Source of the DNA: Octopus sinensis
Taxonomy: Eukaryota
DNA length: 64,000 bases
Direction: 5' to 3'
Assembly: GCF_006345805.1 (NCBI RefSeq)
Contig: NC_043015.1
Span: 10,974,001-11,038,000 of the forward strand
Of the stretch, positions 10,129 to 47,679 are shown piece by piece. Below the pieces are notes generated by a model, which was not told the DNA's origin, did not search any database, and worked only from the letters and a program-made list of their open reading frames with translations. The first letter of the stretch is position 1, and the number at the start of each line of letters is the position of its first letter. Both the position numbers and the translations under genes were made by a program.

Positions 10129-10332
10129 GTGTGTGTGTATACATAAATATATATATATATATTGTAAAGTATAGAAGCCATCTTATCATGGCTAACCACA
10201 TTGGGGAGGGGGTGTTACTGTAGCTTTATAGCTCCAAGAGATCTTCGTCTCTAGCTGGCTCTAGACACAATATCTGTGTCCTTGGAATATTTGCAAAGGG
10301 AGGCCATCCCTTCCTCGCAAGCCTGAGTGATA

Positions 10333-10375
10333 CGCTCGAACTAGTTTCGGGATTGTTGTCCCTCGTCAACGGGCG
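10333..10375 (-). ncRNA. Minimal type I HHR (C3>U variant)
   Basis: cgcccg-TTGACGA-gggacaacaatccc-GAAA-ctag-TT-cgagcg; palindromic stem III ACTAGT. Confidence 0.7.
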
Positions 10376-10749
10376 GTACCCACCAGGTAGCGATGAAATT
10401 TTCTTTATTATGATCAATAGATCTAACATAGAATGGATACATTACAGAACAAAACAATTACAAAAATGCTATGCGAGTTCGAATGAAATTTAAAAAATTA
10501 CAAAATTAAAATTTTATGTCACTTGAACGAAAACTTGGCTTACTTTGCCTTGAAACGAAACCTTGGCTTACTTTTCCCTTTGTCACGAGAACTTTTAGTG
10601 GGTATGTTTTCTTTTCATTTCTTTTTTTTTTATTATTAATTCTTTATTTTAAACAGTTATGTACAGTGAAAGGTAATGGGAGGTACCAGTTTCAATTTTG
10701 AACCCGGCAGCCTATAAATCCCAGCAGCTGATTTTCCTTTCCTCGATGA

Positions 10750-13700
10750 TTAAGCTGGGTTACTCTCACCCACCTTTCTCATCACATCCTTCCAACGTTC
10801 CATATACTCTTTCTGTGGCAGGCTCCTCTTCTCCAACCCCATCTTGCTCTTCAGATGATATCCGAAGTATTTTAACAAACCGGGGCCAGAGATAAAGGAC
10901 CCTTTCACTAGACCTTCCACTCTAGTTCTCCATACACACTCTTTCAATACTGCCACCGTACAGTAAAAACAAGCCTTACCTTCCTTTGAGAGTCCAGTTG
11001 GCGGTATCATCTTAATCATAGATCCAGCCGACAGCTGTACTCGTCCCAGATGCGACAACACGTGTTCCACGTAACTTATCAAGCCTGACAGCTCCCGACA
11101 TTGTACAAAAGCGTGTTGAACGGTTTCATCGTCCAACCCACATCTTGGACACGTCGGTGGCACTGACATTCCGTGCCTGGATAACTTCTCGCGAACAGGT
11201 AATGCATTCCTATAGCACTGCCAGGTCAGGGATTTTTGGTAATTATCCAAATACCCCGGCCTGAAAGTCTTCTTAAACAGGTTGGAGAGTTGATCCTCAT
11301 CGAACCCCAGAGCCCTTCCTAGGACGTCGTCATTTTTTCCTCCTACCAGCCCTTTATAGAACACCGAGGTGGTATTCCCGCTGCCGGCCTTACCCATCTT
11401 GTGGATCAGCCAGAGTGCCTGTCGGCACTCCTTCTGCCATGAAGTCAGTTTACGTCCTTTAATGAGACCGGGTGTAAATCCCTCCATAAGGCCGTCGCGG
11501 GAAGAATTCCTCTGCCAGCGAACTCCACACCTTATCATCCTCCAGGTAACACCAGAGGTGTCTCAGCCTCAACGCATGCTTGCGCATCATTAGCCAAGGC
11601 ATCCCCAGTCCACCCTTTAGCGGTTCCTGGCAACACACGGAGCGTCTCACAAGTGGCTTCCTCCTTTCCACAAAAAGCGGAAAAGAAGTCGTTCCAACTT
11701 GTTTAACCACGAATCGGGGCAAGGCACGACGGTCAGGCGGTAGGTGACGACAGAGGCTATAACATCTGTGCCACCACCTCCGCCCTCCCTTTCAAGGAAA
11801 GATGCCTTCCGGACCACTTCCGTACTTTGGCATCCACCTTGCTCGTTACCTCGCTCCAATTCTTTCCGTCTGGGAGTCTGGACCAAACCATACTCCGAGC
11901 AATTTAACAGGACCATCCGTCCAGTGTCCAACAACACTGGACGGTATCTGCTTGTTCCTCCAGGTGCCGAGGCGCAAACCGATGGACTTGTCCCTGTTAA
12001 CTTTTGCCCCTGCCACCGCTTCGTATCTATGGAGAGCACCTACTACCCGAGGTAGCTGTGTTCCGTTGGACACGATGAGGGTGACGTCATCCGCATAGGC
12101 AGAAACAGACTTACCGCATCCGATTTCATTAGGGTTGCCTCCCAACTTCTCCAGCTTCCGCAGCAATGGCTCAAGAGCCAAAACATACAGGAGCGGGGAC
12201 AAGGGGCACCCTTGTCGAACTGAACGCTTGATCGAAAACGGCTCCGTTAGGTAACCGTTTTCTGGACTGTGGACTTGATGCCGCTGTACATAGCTGAGAT
12301 CCACCCGCAGAAGCCAGGGCCCAGCCCAGCCGCTTCGAGAACCGCCGCCAAGTACCGATGGTCCACCCTATCAAACGCTTTACTTTGGTCTAAATGGACC
12401 AATGCCCCTCCTTTGCCGTCTAATTTCCCGACCCTATCTATAGTGTAGCGGAGAAGGTGAAGATTATCCTGGATCGACCTGCCTGGGATTGCACATGTCT
12501 GTGCCTTCCCGACAAGTTTCTTCACGACAGCCGTCAACCTTTTGCTAACACCTTGGCCAAAATCTTAAACTCTACATTAAGTAGAGTTATGGGCCTGTAA
12601 TTACTAATACTGTCCCCCTTGCTCGGGTCTTTCTGGACCAGCGTCACAACTCCCGACTCACAGAGCTGGGAATCCTCCCATTCTGTTGCCAGTTTGCATA
12701 GACGCTTGCCAGTATGTCCCCGAACAAGTCCGGCATACAACAATAAAATTCATAGGGTAGACCATCCAATCCCGGTGACTTTTCCCCGGCGCACTCGGCC
12801 ATAACCCCTCTTACCTCCGCGGGATAGATCGATCCTTCACAGCACTCCGCCTCACCTGCCGAGAGCCGAGGCCCACCAGCTAGGAAGTCCTTTAAGGTCT
12901 CCCCACGCTCGAGCGGGCCACCGCCCCCAAACAGCCGTGCGAAATGCTGGTGAAGGACCTTCTGCATCTCCTCCTGTCCATAGATCTTGCGGTCCTGCTC
13001 GTCAGTTAAGGACATAATACAGGACTTTTTGCCCTTCTGACTCTCCTCACGACGGGCCCATCCGGCAACGTTAATACCTTCTCGTTTTCCTGCACGTAAC
13101 TTAGCTCTGACTCTACACCCCTCGTGCTTGGCGTTGAGGTGACGGTACAATACCGCTCTCGCTGCCAACACTCCGGATGCACAGCCAGATTCCATAGCCT
13201 CGTCTAAGTTCTTAACTAATTCGCCCTCTATTCTAGTCCTATCTAAACTTAGCTGCTTGCTAAATCTAATGGACTCCAAACGGATGGCTCTTTTGAGGGC
13301 GAGCCACCATCTATTATTAATGATGGTGCCACATAATGCCCTCTGTACTAATTCCTTAATCCGGGTACGGAAAGCTTCACAGGTCAAAATAGACTTGTTC
13401 ATCTTCCAGTACCCGGGACCTTGTCTATGGCATTTATCTACATGTACCTCACACGTTACAAGTTGTGATCCGTGTAAGGCACAACAGAGAATTGTGGACA
13501 GCTAACACTATTCCTATCTCGTTCCTTAACAAATACTCTATCTATGTACGATCTGAGTGAGCCGTCGTTATTACTCCACGTCCACTGTGGAACGTTCGGC
13601 TCATCCAGTCGAAAACGGTCTACTAGATTAAAGCTCGCTAGTAGAGCCTTGAGGCCAGGATTCCCCTTCCTATCGCTCGAGCCTACACCATCCACCCGCG

Positions 13701-14133
13701 CATCGAGAATGGTGTTGAAATCCCCTACCAAGACTACCGTTTTGGACGTCACTAGAAAGTGCTCCAGTTCCCGATAAAAACCGGTCTGCCCACGTCCGTT
13801 AGGAGCGTAGACAGCCACCAACCTGAAGGACTGCTTACTCACGTGCGTCACATCTAGGACAACCAGCCTACCTTCTGGGTCCAAAAAGACAGTACTTACC
13901 TGTAAGTCCAAGTTCTTCCTGAAAAGAACTGCCACGCCTGCACCTCCCCCTCGGCTAGGAGAAATAAATTTCTCGTAACCATTGAGAAGTGGTGAGAACG
14001 CTTGGGGTCCCTTCATCTTGGACTCGGTAACAATAGCTACTTCGATTCTATGTGAAATGAGGTCGTCACGAAAACAAGCCTGTTTCCATTTCGATCCCAT
14101 TCCACGCGCATTTATACAACCTAACTTAATCAT
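10750..14133 (-). pseudogene. Tx1 ORF2 (APE endonuclease, reverse transcriptase, C-terminal CxxC...HxxxxC), frameshifted
   Basis: MIKLGCINARG, LVAVYAPN, VGDFN, SYIDRVF, TDH, KSPGLDGLPYEFY, NYRPITLLN, LDQSKAFDRVDH, VRQGCPLSPLLY, AYADDVT and TCPRCGLDDETVQHAFVQC across successive ORF pieces. Confidence 0.92.
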
Positions 14134-14152
14134 CGAGAAAAAAGAAAATTAT

Positions 14153-15535
14153 TTACTCACGTTGCGAGAGGGAGCCTGACAGATTCTTTCTGCCTGTCTC
14201 CCCCCCACTCGCCGTTGCTGCTGGGTGTTTCACCGGCGTTGCCACCGGGCTCTGGGTTGGTGTGGCTGCCGGGCTAACGGGTAATTTCCCAGTTGTCACC
14301 TCCTGGGTGACATCCTTAATGAAGCCGGCTTTTACGTGGCTTTGTAAGGTTTTTGTCTTTCCATCCTTCTTCGCCGACCCTTCCATATCGCCACTCCGCT
14401 TCCTTCTCGGTCGCTTTGTAGCACCTGATCAGCGTACTTGCTTTCACCCATGTTTCTACTCTCACGTTCTTTGTGGTGTATGCAATAATTTTTCGTTGGG
14501 TTTAAACCCTTTTACAGTTGGGGGTGGGGTTTGTTAAAGTGCTGGCCTATAAGTGTAGTACCGCCGGGGTGGGATTGGAGAATATTTTTAATTTGTTCGT
14601 CTGCGTTTTTTTTTTTTTGATACGGGTGGGGAGTCAGGGGTGATGGATTTTTTCCTTTTTGTTGGACACGTTCGTAAATCCATGTCTTCTTGTTTATTTG
14701 TTTTGTTGTCATTATTTTCCTCATCCTTTCCTTTCTCATTTTGCATTTCGTTCTTGTCTTCCTCCTTTTTGGAGTTCGACCTGTTTATTTTTTCCTCCTT
14801 GTTTTCGCCAGCCGTTACTTTTTTCTCCACTTTGCTGCTTTCTGCGTTCTTCACAGCGTTTTGTGGGGGGGCGTTGCCCGCATTATTTTTTTTTTGTGCA
14901 AACGGAGCGAACGTGGCCCTTTTGCCCGCACTTAAAACATCTGGGCCTGCGTCCTTCCACCGAAACTCGTATGGAGTGCCCCTCCCCCACGAAGACTCTG
15001 TCTGGTAGGCTTTCCAACGTCGCATTTTCCGCCTGGATTATCATCTCCAGCTGCTGGCCTCTCCAGTGTTTTGCAATTTTTCTCTTCATACTTAAAATTG
15101 TCAATTTTGATTCAACATCAAAAATGACCGCTGTTGCCGCCCACATCACGTCGTAGCCCGTTGGTATATCTTCTAGGGTCACTTTTGCGGTTCTGCATCC
15201 TAAATATAAGGGTAGCAGTATTATACTCTCGTTTTCCAACGTTTGTGTCGAAATTTGCCTTGCTACTTCCGCCGTTTCAAAATGCGCCCCACTGTAGCGC
15301 TTCTTGCACCTCGGTTGACATGACTAACTTTACTCCATATTGGAGCCATACACTTTTCGACCATTTCGTTTTTCACGTCGGTCATTCGTTTTTCCTTGAT
15401 ATTGTACACCCTGTAGGTGACCATTTTTTCCTTTATTGCTTGTATAGTTTCGGGGGGCGGTACCAATCGTGTTTCTTCGCCACTTTTTTGCACCAGCGAT
15501 CTAAACTTGAATAATCTTTCCATTGATACCTCCAT
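14153..15535 (-). pseudogene. Tx1 ORF1 (gag-like, CCHC knuckle), frameshifted
   Basis: VEGRRPRCFKCGQKGHVRSVC knuckle followed by a K/E-rich low-complexity tail; lies directly upstream of ORF2. Confidence 0.85.
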
Positions 15536-16224
15536 TTCTTCGACTTCGCCACCTACGGCGTCTGAAAACTGGGTTTTGTCTGTGTTTCCTTTTGTTTAAC
15601 AGTTGTTATACTTTCTCCCATCTCGGGAAAGTCTTTTTTTTGAACTTAAGTCTAATTCCATATTAGACAACACAAACTTGTCACAAATGACAAGAGAATT
15701 TTTTTTTTTTCCAAAAATAACCTATACAGGTTAAGAGTTCACACAAAACAGCACACAGAAATTTTCTACCCCGAAGGGCGAAAATTACTGGGTCAAAAAC
15801 AGTTCAACAATGATATTACTTGTAACACGACAGAGTAGACAAACGGAAACGAACTCACACAACGATTTGCAGCAACAGAAAAATATTGGTATACGCCGAG
15901 GAAAAATTCAAAAAACACCAGGTAGCGATGAAAGTGAAGGCTCCTTTGCAAATAGATATACGTTTTTCTAATGGCGTCTGCCACTGATGTCGAAAAACGA
16001 ACAGGAAGCATAATTAAATCTCAGAATGAGATTGAAACAGTAATCGCTCGATAATGTAAAGTATAGAGGCCATCTTATCATGGCTAACCACATTGGGGAG
16101 GTGGTGTTACTGTAGCTTTATAGCCCCAAGAGATCTTCGTCTCTAGCTGGATCTAGACACAATATCTGTGTCCTTGGAGTATTTGCAAAGGGAGGCCATC
16201 CCTTTCTCGCAAGCCTGAGTGATA

Positions 16225-16267
16225 CGCTCGAACCAGTTTCGGGATTGTTGTCCCTCGTCAGCGGGCG
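16225..16267 (-). ncRNA. Minimal type I HHR, intact core
   Basis: cgcccg-CTGACGA-ggga caacaa tccc-GAAA-ctgg-TT-cgagcg; predicted cut between 16231 and 16230. Confidence 0.8.
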
Positions 16268-16390
16268 GTAACCACCAGGTAGCGTTGAAAGTGAAGGCTC
16301 CTTTGCAAGTGGTTAGTCATGATAAGATGCTTCTATACTTTACATTATCGAGCGATTACTGTTTCAATCTCATTCTGAGATTTAATTATG

Positions 16391-16429
<39 letters not shown>

Positions 16430-18880: not shown

Positions 18881-20009
18881 TATATAATGTATACACAAGA
18901 GTAAGTAAATGGGAAAGAGACATAAATATCATGAGGCCGGTGAGGAAAAATTAGATTACATTAAGTTTAAAGCGAGGGAAGCGTTGCAGAATAAGGAAAG
19001 AAGGAAGATATGCAGCCGAAATTTTGTGGGAGGGCGACGTAGATAACATGGGACCTGTTGAGGGAGGTTATCAAAAGTTTGTCATCGCAGTTACTTTAAG
19101 GTTATGGCAATTTTTATACAGGTGTCATGGAGGAGACATTGTACCAATTCCATATTCTGCTTAGTTAATCGATTATTATATCTATGCATAAGCACACACA
19201 CACACACACACACACGCAACTATATAATGCAGAGCAATTATGTATACCTATTACCAAAGACACTTTGTAGTTGTTGTCATTCGAAATTTTAATGGGGATA
19301 TTATTTTAGTATCAATTTGCTTCCCGTCATTTAGTGTTTTTGTTAAATTAGACTAATGGACTTGCTTGTCTTGACTTGTTTATGTGAATGAATACATTTA
19401 CTTCGTCTTTCATTAGATATTTTAGACTCATTAATTAATCATTATTATTATTACGCTCCTGTATTATGGAATTGCACAAGTATTATTTCCTTTTGTACAT
19501 GTTCTGCATTTTGATCCGTCTATTTGATTCTGAGGGAGTCAAATACAGTATATAGACAGATAGTGACTACCACAGGCATATATTGGATATGTAATAAAAA
19601 ATATCAAATATATACTCTTTTACTCTTTTAATCTTTTAATTGTTTCAGTCATTTGACTGCGGCCATGTTGGAGCACCGCCTTTAGTCGGGTAAATCGACC
19701 CCGGGACTTATTACTTGTAAGCCCAGTACTTATTCTATCGGTCTCTTTTGCTGAACCGCTAAGTTACGAGGACGTAAACACACCAGTCGGTTGTCAAGCA
19801 ATACTAATGAGACAAACACATACACACAAACACATACACACACATATATATATATATATACATATATACGACGGGCTTCTTTCAGTTTCCCATTACCAAA
19901 TCCACTCACAAGGCATTGGTCGGCCCGGGGCTATAGCAGAAGACACCTGCCCAAGATGCCACGCAGTGGGACTGAACCCGGAACCATGTGGTTGGTTAGC
20001 AAGCTACTT

Positions 20010-33814: not shown

Positions 33815-33856
33815 TATATATATATATTACATATATATATACTATATACATATATA

Positions 33857-34267
33857 GGCGCAGGAGTGGCTGTGTGGTAAGTGGCTTGCTAACCAGCCAC
33901 ATGGTTCCGGGTTCAATCCCATTGCGTGGCAGCTTGGGCAAGTGTCTTCTGCTACAGCCTCGGGCCGACCAACGCCTTGTGAGTGTATTTGGTAGACTGA
34001 AACTGAAAGAAGCCCGTCGTATATATGTATATATATATGTATGTGTGTGTATATGTTTGTGTGTTTGTGTTTTTCCCTCTAGCATTGCTAGACAACCGAC
34101 GCTGGTGTGTTTACATCCCCGTCACTTAGCGGTTCGTCAAAAGACACCGATATAATAAGTACTGGGCTTACAAAGAATAAGTCCCGGGGTCTATTTGCTC
34201 GACTAAAGGCGGTGCTCCAGCATGGCCGCAGTTAACTGACTGAAACAAGTAAAAGAGTAAAGAGTAA
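33857..34267 (+). mobile_element. Full-length tRNA-derived SINE with internal (TA)/(TG) tract
   Basis: GGCGCAGGAGTGGCTGTGTGGTAAG...GGTTCAATCCC head and AAAGAGTA tail. Confidence 0.9.
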
Positions 34268-47160: not shown

Positions 47161-47532
47161 TTCTTTTACTTGTTTCAGTCATTTGACTGCGGCCATGCTG
47201 GAACACCGCCTTATTCTTTGTAAGCCCAGTACTTATTCTATCGGTCTCTTTTGCCGAACCGCTAAGTTACGGGGACGTAAACACACCAGCATCGGTTGTC
47301 AAGCAATGCTAGGGGGACAAACACAGACACAAACATATACACACACACTTACATATATATGCATATATACGACAGGCTTCTTTCAGTTGCCGTCTACCAA
47401 ATCCACTCACAAGGCATTGGTCGGCCCGGGGCTATAGCAGAAGACACTTGCCCAAGATGCCACGCAGTGGGAGTGAACCCGGAACCATGTGGTTGGTTAG
47501 CAAGCTACTTACCACACAGCCACTCCTGCGCC
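47161..47532 (-). mobile_element. tRNA-derived SINE, uninterrupted head
   Basis: Contains GGTTGGTTAGCAAGCTACTTACCACACAGCC once, i.e. the empty site of the 20010-22276 insertion. Confidence 0.9.
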
Positions 47533-47679
47533 TTATATTTGTATATATTGTTTACTGTATATATGTTTATATTCGTATAGATAGAGAGAAAGTGAGATAT
47601 ATAGATAGAGATAGAGAGAGAGAGAGAGTTAGAGAGAGAGATAGAGTTAGGGAGATAGGTAGATAATTATATATATATA

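What the first reader, a model, noticed from the sequence alone, without database searches (positions are those of the whole stretch)
10161..16391. Tx1 retrotransposon inserted in a hammerhead repeat and bracketed by two same-strand ribozymes
Seen: a 5517-bp Tx1 element with an exact 18-bp TSD lies inside a tandem HHR repeat, on the same strand as both HHRs. Predicted cuts fall ~315 nt upstream of its 5' end (16231/16230) and ~60 nt downstream of its 3' end (10339/10338), 5892 nt apart. Known: many Tx1 families are target-specific (U2, 5S, tRNA arrays, microsatellites, other transposons), and minimal HHRs with palindromic stem III cleave as dimers. Inference: this family may target HHR repeats and use them to cut its RNA out of read-through transcripts, possibly as a circularisable unit. 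I do not know of such a described target. Caveats: this is one locus, and the downstream HHR carries C3>U.
Basis: partly seen in the sequence, partly recalled or inferred. Interest (0 to 1): 0.85.

Follow-up and report, generated by a model that had tools for sequence, protein, structure and literature searches.

The report
Retrotransposon that targets ribozyme-repeat promoters
A LINE retrotransposon family inserts again and again at one spot in a hammerhead-ribozyme repeat and at the first bases of U1/U2 snRNA genes, always about 59 bases downstream of the same promoter-like motif, so it likely finds and borrows snRNA-type promoters rather than using two ribozymes to cut itself out.

Summary
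Of the top 30 3' ends, 23 abut the same site of the hammerhead repeat or a sister repeat, 6 abut the regenerated site plus another copy, and 1 abuts U2 snRNA +1. The host is a 357-bp Penelope-type non-autonomous repeat (retrozyme).

The two-ribozyme release idea is not general. Only 6 of 30 5' flanks carry an upstream hammerhead, the family core is U3·G8, and the element has its own AATAAA.

The site lies 59 nt downstream of ATCAGT, the motif found at -57 to -61 in 43 of 45 U1/U2 promoters of this genome. Related subfamilies hit the equivalent position in diverged sister repeats and in U1/U2 genes; 0 of 14 control sites show the motif there. All 24 filled sites keep at least 171 nt of upstream repeat, against 5 of 24 empty sites. 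Several copies carry a donor's +1 to +14/17 sequence at the 5' junction.

Best reading: promoter-directed insertion at the start site of snRNA-type promoters, which then transcribe the element. No RNA data were obtained; one genome only.

The parts
16309..16391 (+). inverted 5'-truncated piece of the host repeat (Penelope-type inversion), next to (TA)n
   Evidence: 96% reverse complement of 16008-16091
15952..16308 (-). first full 357-bp unit of the hammerhead repeat (retrozyme A); its own +1 site is mutated (AACG at 16286), has no promoter motif upstream, and is empty
16224..16270 (-). upstream type I hammerhead, CTGACGA core, non-palindromic stem III; predicted cut 16231/16230; present in only 6 of 30 sampled copies
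16096..16101 (-). CCTCCC at about -172 to -167, where the two shortest filled copies begin; possible distal promoter element (weak lead)
15981..15988 (-). ATCAGTGG, PSE-like motif 59 nt upstream of the predicted +1, same motif and spacing as in this genome's U1/U2 promoters
15916..15933 (-). 5' copy of the target duplication; predicted transcription start at the A of ATCG (15929), element joined after +14
10399..15915 (-). full-length L1-group (Tx1-like) non-LTR retrotransposon, frameshifted in this assembly; about 99% identical to copies with a 1134-aa ORF2 frame
14886..15595 (-). ORF1 fragments with a CCHC zinc knuckle
   Evidence: PF00098, E 4e-4
13459..14133 (-). APE endonuclease domain
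   Evidence: PF03372; best PDB matches are L1 endonucleases
11849..12564 (-). reverse transcriptase domain, in two frames
   Evidence: PF00078
10753..11562 (-). ORF2 C-terminal part with zf-RVT
   Evidence: PF13966
10404..10409 (-). AATAAA 5 nt before the 3' junction; likely the element's own polyadenylation signal
   Evidence: sequence; present at the 3' end of nearly all relatives examined
10381..10398 (-). 3' copy of the target duplication
10332..10378 (-). downstream type I hammerhead, family-typical TTGACGA core (U3·G8), palindromic stem III ACTAGT; predicted cut 10339/10338
10159..10331 (-). rest of the host repeat up to its usual 3' end (unit position about 258), followed by (TA)n

Best explanation
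This Tx1-like LINE family inserts site-specifically 14 bases after a fixed point that lies 57-61 nt downstream of an ATCAGT motif, in a hammerhead retrozyme and in U1/U2 snRNA genes, and it likely does so because that point is the start site of an snRNA-type Pol II promoter that would then transcribe the element. SHOWN: one site and one orientation in repeat A; the equivalent site in diverged sister repeats B, C, D and E and at U1/U2 +1; tandem re-insertion into the regenerated site; a strong bias to repeat copies that keep at least 171 nt of upstream sequence; 5' junctions carrying another locus's +1 to +14/17 sequence. INFERRED: the motif is a PSE and the repeat is transcribed from it; the endonuclease is brought to, or gains access at, the promoter-bound start site, nicking the bottom strand at about -3 to +1 and the top strand at about +14; the RNA starts in the 5' duplication, so its short leader anneals to the next target and gives precise full-length insertions; the 3' end is made by the element's AATAAA. 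The hammerhead marks the host repeat and is probably not needed.
For: 3' flanks of the top 30 copies: 22 repeat A, 1 repeat B, 6 duplication plus another element, 1 U2. Next 10: 9 at the repeat site, 1 unresolved (L212). ATCAGT at -57 to -61 in 15 of 15 U1 and 28 of 30 U2 upstream regions, and 0 of 15 U6 loci within 90 nt. Best PWM site within -55 to -62 in 25 of 26 family 5' junctions, 5 of 6 older copies, 12 of 13 relatives, 0 of 14 controls and 5.9% of random window pieces. The distance from +1 to the ribozyme core varies (25 nt in A, about 30-32 in C and D) while the distance to the motif stays at 57-61. Upstream repeat shorter than 165 nt in 0 of 24 filled and 19 of 24 empty sites, Fisher p=7e-9, threshold set after seeing the data; motif missing in 1 of 25 filled and 8 of 23 empty sites, p=0.009. 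Insertions at snRNA +1: L015/L057 (U2), L294 (U1), L297 and L295 (U2). Foreign leaders: repeat-A +1..+14 in the U2 insertion, U1 +1..+17 at an unrelated site (L250), triple U2 head (L249); 8 of 25 parsed 5'/3' duplication pairs differ, 4 by the same T/G swap. 29 of the top 30 copies keep their 5' end. Precedent: newt satellite 2 uses an snRNA-type Pol II promoter (passage in PMC2220036).
Against: No transcript, start site or factor binding was measured. Copies of one repeat family are not independent, and repeats A-E look like one superfamily, so the independent contexts number about 3 to 7. Two filled sites lack the motif (L055, L228), and L250 is a family-D-like copy at a site with no motif. 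Repeat motifs score lower (7-13 bits) than real U1/U2 sites (13-22). Subfamilies keep to particular repeat families, so local sequence also matters. The non-specific sister group also carries foreign 5' tags (L361, L362), so leader capture alone does not prove an outside promoter. Three letters of the U2 junction can be read as U2 +12..+14 or as repeat -3..-1, each with one substitution. A TATA-like stretch at about -31 in the repeats leaves Pol III open for the repeat itself; Pol III would stop at the element's first T-run.
Confidence: 0.72

Rival explanations
1. Plain sequence-based specificity: the endonuclease and/or pairing of target sequence carried on the RNA ends picks TTYATCG-like sites, and the promoter motif is a bystander that happens to lie upstream in the host repeat.
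For: Subfamilies track particular repeats; off-target sites resemble the donor leader (U2 shares ATCGCT; L250's site shares ATACTT); two filled sites lack the motif; the non-specific sister group reuses a few other targets two or three times each.
Against: Empty repeat-A copies with an intact 18-mer but a short upstream part are common and were not found filled (0 of 24 filled against 19 of 24 empty below 165 nt). The +1 sequences differ between A, C, D and U1 while the spacing to the motif does not. Two lineages about 83% identical in endonuclease DNA use the same site in repeat B.
Confidence: 0.17
2. One reading: read-through RNA is cut by an upstream and a downstream hammerhead, releasing a 5892-nt, possibly circular, element RNA. 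Weaker form: only the downstream ribozyme trims the 3' end 60 nt past the element.
For: The geometry at this locus is as described; the downstream ribozyme is always same-strand and about 30-37 nt from the AATAAA; sister repeats have canonical C3-G8 or U3-A8 cores; a two-copy cofold pairs the palindromic stem III region between molecules.
Against: An upstream ribozyme is present in 6 of 30 flanks; U3·G8 in 45 of 49 repeat-A cores (that this lowers activity is recalled); dimer cleavage needs a partner that most filled loci lack; captured leaders are 14-17 nt, not 315 nt; internal copies of tandem arrays and U1/U2 insertions have no ribozyme next to them; no ribozyme sequence was carried into the U2 site.
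Confidence: 0.08
3. Hitchhiking: one ancestral insertion was amplified as a composite with the repeat, by Penelope machinery or segmental duplication, so there is no repeated targeting.
For: Filled loci have the same outline as empty repeats; L298 and L349 look like one duplicated locus; a Mantel test gave rho 0.18, p 0.049, though it was distorted by two internally deleted copies and indel columns.
Against: Near-identical elements sit in repeats A, B and E and in U2; tandem arrays are separated by one duplication; both alleles of the best element marker occur on both flank haplotypes; empty repeats truncate within a few hundred bases whereas 29 of 30 elements keep all 5.5 kb.
Confidence: 0.03

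Closest known systems
Keno (Tx1 clade) and Utopia, U2 snRNA gene-specific non-LTR retrotransposons
   Same: Site-specific insertion in U2 genes, tandem insertion; Keno has an APE endonuclease (passages of PMC4494074 and PMC4640811).
   Different: Their 3' flank starts at U2 nucleotide 39; here it starts at about -3 to +1 with the element joined after +14. The main target here is a retrozyme, with U1 and U2 as minor targets.
Tx1L of Xenopus and crocodilian Tx1-Mar (Tx1 families that target other transposons; some carry U1/U2 heads)
   Same: A Tx1 family parasitising a non-autonomous mobile element, mobilising non-autonomous partners, and picking up U1/U2 5' sequence (PMC4494074 passages and section 20).
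   Different: Those targets are DNA transposons or LTR elements with no promoter-linked position reported in the passages read. Here the target is a hammerhead retrozyme and the site tracks a PSE-like motif. That paper's Fig. 3 legend lists an unnamed 'satellite' target that could not be inspected.
Non-LTR (animal) retrozymes / non-autonomous Penelope-like elements; newt satellite 2
   Same: The host repeat is 357 bp with a type I hammerhead, partial tandems, 5' truncation with inversion and microsatellite flanks (PMC7229834, PMC8557442, bioRxiv 10.64898/2026.07.22.740005). Newt satellite 2 has an snRNA-type promoter (PMC2220036 passage).
   Different: No LINE insertion into retrozymes is mentioned in the passages read; the autonomous partner was not found; repeat A has a U3·G8 core.
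Ty3 and Dictyostelium TRE5-A (promoter-factor-guided retrotransposons)
   Same: Position fixed relative to a small-RNA promoter and dependent on intact promoter elements; Ty3 inserts within 1-4 nt of the start site (PMC5911963 passages).
   Different: Those use TFIIIB at Pol III genes and insert upstream of the gene. Here the promoter is of U1/U2 type and the element lands downstream of +1 in sense orientation. No protein contact is shown.
R2 elements
   Same: Rely on the target's transcription, and co-transcribed target sequence aids precise integration (section 20 of PMC4494074).
   Different: R2 encodes its own HDV-like ribozyme and, as recalled, a restriction-like endonuclease; here the ribozyme belongs to the host repeat and appears dispensable.

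Membership tests
L1-group non-LTR retrotransposon | ORF2 with N-terminal APE endonuclease, RT and C-terminal zinc-binding region; ORF1; target duplication | tested here: met
   Pfam, L1 endonucleases as best PDB matches, 1134-aa frames in two copies, duplication
Tx1 clade (rather than L1 clade) | RT groups with named Tx1 families in a tree | not testable with these tools
   No named Tx1 or Repbase references were available; homologs were mostly unnamed, nearest named hit an Argonauta hians hypothetical protein at 65%. The CCHC ORF1 and long duplication fit Tx1 as recalled.
Target-specific Tx1-type family | More than 20% of flanks share one repeat (criterion in PMC4494074) | tested here: met
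   29 of the top 30 3' ends are at the repeat site directly or through the regenerated duplication
Keno | Insertion with the 3' flank starting at U2 nucleotide 39 | tested here: not met
   U2 insertions have 3' flanks starting at about +1
Non-LTR retrozyme (host repeat) | 150-450-bp non-coding tandem unit with a type I hammerhead | tested here: met
   357-bp unit; stems covary, cores C3-G8, U3-A8 and U3·G8; no Rfam hit at gathering score
Non-LTR retrozyme (host repeat) | Self-cleavage and circular RNA | not testable with these tools
   Needs an in vitro assay and RNA data
Non-autonomous Penelope-like element (host repeat) | Partial tandems, inverted 5'-truncated copy, two 3' ends 30-45 nt apart | tested here: met
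   3' ends cluster at unit 255-259 and 301-303, and inversions are common; features as described in PMC8557442
Non-autonomous Penelope-like element (host repeat) | Shares its pLTR with an autonomous RT plus GIY-YIG element | tested here: inconclusive
   No such pLTR after 30 of 147 GIY-YIG matches examined
U1/U2-type snRNA promoter (in the host repeat) | PSE about 60 nt upstream of +1 | tested here: met
   Same motif and spacing as 43 of 45 U1/U2 upstream regions; lower PWM scores
U1/U2-type snRNA promoter (in the host repeat) | SNAPc binding and Pol II initiation at +1 | not testable with these tools
   Only indirect support from captured leaders
Ribozyme-released retroelement (R2-like processing) | A ribozyme at the RNA 5' boundary in all functional copies | tested here: not met
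   Upstream hammerhead in 6 of 30 flanks

The most novel reading that the evidence does not exclude
A LINE lineage tethered to the snRNA-promoter complex (SNAPc/Pol II) that inserts at the start site of any intact U1/U2-type promoter: a Pol II snRNA counterpart of Ty3/TRE5 targeting. It lives mainly as a hyperparasite of hammerhead retrozymes, cutting them off from their own promoter, carries non-autonomous ORF1-only passengers, and passes target memory on through a 14-17-nt RNA leader. This would also give a route by which Tx1 elements and SINEU acquire U1/U2 heads.
Probability: 0.45. Interest if true: 0.87.

Novelty: new variant of a known kind. Interest (0 to 1): 0.74.

Why it matters
It adds a target class for Tx1-like LINEs (hammerhead retrozymes and the +1 of U1/U2 genes) that the searches here did not find in print. 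Target choice appears to depend on up to about 170 nt of upstream promoter rather than on the cut sequence alone, which goes against the endonuclease-only view quoted in PMC4494074. The element also works as a natural promoter probe: it points to where an invertebrate retrozyme is transcribed from. A sister group 88-96% identical in endonuclease DNA inserts at unrelated sites, so the determinant of specificity can be mapped by comparison, which is relevant to site-specific retrotransposon gene-insertion tools.

Tried and rejected
Rfam scan of the window: 0 hits. Repeat finders were swamped by microsatellites; self-BLAST was used instead. Minimum-energy folds of single hammerheads do not show the catalytic fold, so covariation was used. 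Endonuclease homolog search among longer proteins: 2 unnamed hits. Search for the autonomous Penelope partner: none in 30 of 147 GIY-YIG matches; two loci held unrelated retrozyme insertions. Sequencing-run search: no RNA holder listed; no reads were laid, so start sites, ends and expression remain open. Earlier scan findings were not available. U6-type promoter for the repeat: its motif matches U1/U2 and none of 15 U6 loci, although several of those U6 loci look like retrocopies. Distal element: no motif shared by all promoters; CCTCCC at about -265 in 3 of 15 U1 and 2 of 15 U6 loci is only a lead. The Mantel test and the hand-entered upstream lengths were superseded. The 3' and endonuclease trees disagree on whether the repeat-B-targeting 80% subgroup is nested in or basal to the non-specific group (midpoint roots), so no order of gain or loss is claimed. 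No relatives of G000 are held, so no other genome was tested. Lünse et al. (PMC5785218) is not held, Coats et al. 1994 was seen only as a citation, and the supplements of PMC4494074 could not be read; those supplements and Repbase may name a satellite target equal to a retrozyme.
Full report
OBSERVATION. The minus strand reads: (TA)n; an inverted 83-bp piece (16391-16309); a 357-bp unit (16308-15952); 36 bp of a second unit ending in TTTCATCGCTACCTGGTG (15933-15916); a 5517-bp element; the same 18-mer (10398-10381); the rest of the unit to 10159; (TA)n. The element has a CCHC ORF1, APE endonuclease, RT and zf-RVT. Its endonuclease matches L1 structures best, and two copies about 99% identical keep a 1134-aa frame. 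The nearest named protein is from Argonauta hians, so the host is probably a cephalopod. 'Tx1' rests on recalled features, not on a tree with named references.

TARGET SPECIFICITY. A search of G000 with the 3' 122 bp scored 40 of 180 candidates. Of the top 30, 22 are followed by repeat A at the same base and strand, 1 by a sister repeat B (about 75% alike), 5 by the duplication and another family copy, 1 by a B-type duplication and a relative, and 1 by the first base of a U2 gene. Of the next 10, 9 are at the repeat site and L212 matches for 10 nt and then diverges. The 5' search scored 40 of 98 candidates; the top 30 gave 26 repeat flanks, 3 tandem junctions and 1 U2. Twenty-nine of the 30 3' ends have a 5' end; L014 is truncated. 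Hitchhiking is unlikely: near-identical elements sit in A, B, E and U2, and both alleles of the best element marker occur on both flank haplotypes. A distorted Mantel test gave p=0.049 in the other direction.

THE HOST. Empty copies are partial tandems with variable 5' truncation, frequent inversion and 3' ends clustering at unit 255-259 or 301-303. This is the Penelope pattern (PMC8557442, passages) and fits animal retrozymes (PMC7229834, passages; bioRxiv 10.64898/2026.07.22.740005, parts 1-2 of 5). No autonomous partner turned up in 30 of 147 GIY-YIG matches. The ribozyme is real as a family: stems I and II covary, stem III is mostly palindromic, and cores are C3-G8 (15 variants), U3·G8 (12) and U3-A8 (5); U3-A8 is a published natural variant (PMC4209133, passage). 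Repeat A itself is U3·G8 in 45 of 49 parsed cores, with a GUU triplet and a stem I mismatch. That this weakens cleavage is recalled, not tested.

AGAINST TWO-RIBOZYME RELEASE. A same-strand upstream hammerhead is present in L034, L048, L049, L058, L059 and L060, that is 6 of 30 5' flanks. The element ends in AATAAA 5 nt before the junction. Copies inside tandem arrays or in snRNA genes have no adjacent ribozyme. Trimming by the downstream ribozyme alone cannot be excluded.

THE PROMOTER LINK. The U2 insertion aligned the repeat's ATCG with U2 +1. ATCAGT lies at -57 to -61 in 15 of 15 U1 and 28 of 30 U2 upstream regions; the two misses are the element-interrupted gene and a copy without the ATCG start. 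It is absent from 15 U6 loci, and it lies at -59 in repeat A (15988). A PWM from those 43 sites placed its best hit within -55 to -62 in 25 of 26 family junctions, 5 of 6 older copies, 12 of 13 relatives in repeats A-E, 0 of 14 controls and 5.9% of random pieces. The controls were 12 of 20 sister-group loci in which a duplication could be placed, plus L267 and L250. The miss among relatives (L285) has ATCAGT at -58 with a low score; L055 and L228 truly lack the motif. Copies of one repeat are not independent. What counts is that A/B/E, C, D, U1 and U2 differ in +1 sequence and in distance to the ribozyme but keep this spacing. Relatives were found at U1 +1 (L294) and U2 +1 (L297, L295).

PROMOTER DEPENDENCE. 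All 24 filled repeat-A sites keep 171-379 nt of same-strand repeat upstream; L055 is among them despite an internal deletion of the motif. Of 24 empty sites from 30 loci picked by the ribozyme part alone (4 filled and 2 without a site were dropped), 19 keep under 165 nt; p=7e-9, with the threshold chosen after seeing the data. One of the 19, L105, is really an internal deletion. Among motif-bearing sites the contrast is 0 of 24 against 10 of 15. Empty sites picked for having 145 nt upstream still had 8 of 19 under 165. In this window the first unit, which has no upstream motif and a mutated +1, is empty, and the second is filled.

RNA LEADER. The U2 insertion reads U2 +1..+11, three ambiguous letters, repeat-A +1..+14, then the element. 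L250 carries U1 +1..+17 at an unrelated site, and L249 three U2 heads. Of 28 paired copies, 25 parsed on both sides; 17 have identical duplications and 8 differ, 4 by the same T/G swap that is polymorphic among repeat haplotypes, and 2 of the 8 are ambiguous. This is expected if the RNA starts in the 5' duplication and its cDNA end anneals at the next target. Template switching onto snRNA is an alternative for the heads, and the non-specific sisters also carry tags, so this point is supportive only.

MECHANISM. Shown: site, strand, spacing, upstream-length bias, foreign leaders. Inferred: PSE function, Pol II start at +1, nicks at about -3..+1 and +14, leader annealing, AATAAA end. Whether the endonuclease is tethered by SNAPc or only gains access at an open start site is unknown. 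Subfamily fidelity to particular repeats shows that sequence contributes too. A subgroup 88-96% identical in endonuclease DNA to non-specific sisters, and about 83% to this family, uses the same site in repeat B.

COMPARISON. Keno and Utopia use U2 nucleotide 39 (PMC4640811, passages). Tx1 families targeting DNA transposons, LTR elements, microsatellites, 5S, U5 and an unnamed satellite, and Tx1 with U1/U2 heads, are known (PMC4494074, passages and section 20; supplements not readable). Newt satellite 2 has an snRNA-type promoter (citation passage in PMC2220036). Ty3 and TRE5-A are guided by TFIIIB (PMC5911963, passages). Two searches returned 0 papers: Tx1 + retrozyme + retrotransposon + 'inserted into' and SNAPc + non-LTR retrotransposon + U2 snRNA gene + insertion. 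Listings showed no such description. The library lacks most subscription papers and Repbase.

VERDICT. A real, target-specific Tx1-like lineage with a target class not found in the searches above, and good genomic evidence for promoter-directed insertion. The ribozyme-excision reading is mostly not supported. New variant of a known kind; interest 0.74.

Noticed in passing
L230, L295, L335, L337, L338: A 1.6-kb ORF1-only non-autonomous element (444-aa frame in L335) uses the same site in repeats A and B and in a U2 gene, and alternates in tandem with the full elements; similar 5' ends appear in repeat C (L371, L383).
   Followed up: partly
L249:6200-6330 and L297: A related element in U2 carries three stacked copies of U2 +1..+14/16 plus element 5' sequence, like heads added in successive rounds of insertion.
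   Followed up: partly
L370-L399: 7 of 30 repeat-C loci picked by their promoter motif alone are occupied at +14 to +18 (read by eye); for repeat A, 12 of 30 promoter-picked against 4 of 30 ribozyme-picked loci are filled.
   Followed up: partly
L267, L265, L359; L363, L365, L367; L254, L257: The 'non-specific' sister group reuses three other unidentified repeat targets two or three times each, and includes many 5'-truncated copies.
   Followed up: no
L163-L165, L166, L171 (about -265) and window 16195-16190: An (A/G)CCTCCCTT motif lies about 265 nt upstream of +1 in some U1 and U6 genes and in repeats A, B and D; a possible distal promoter element.
   Followed up: partly
L174-L180 (C1 near 141.9 Mb): A tandem array of divergent U6-like genes with ATGCAAAT at about -78 and a TATA box; U6 promoters here lack the U1/U2 ATCAGT motif.
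   Followed up: no
repeat families A-E: Hammerhead cores show all three states C3-G8, U3·G8 and U3-A8, and some C4 variants: a natural series for the 3-8 pair.
   Followed up: partly
window 19627-20009, 33856-34261, 47210-47533: Three copies of another dispersed repeat of about 400 bp, 88-90% alike, in mixed orientation.
   Followed up: no
L304-L333: Many GIY-YIG frames, up to 883 aa, followed by short TGATGACGTC tandem repeats; probably an abundant Penelope-like family unrelated to this retrozyme.
   Followed up: no
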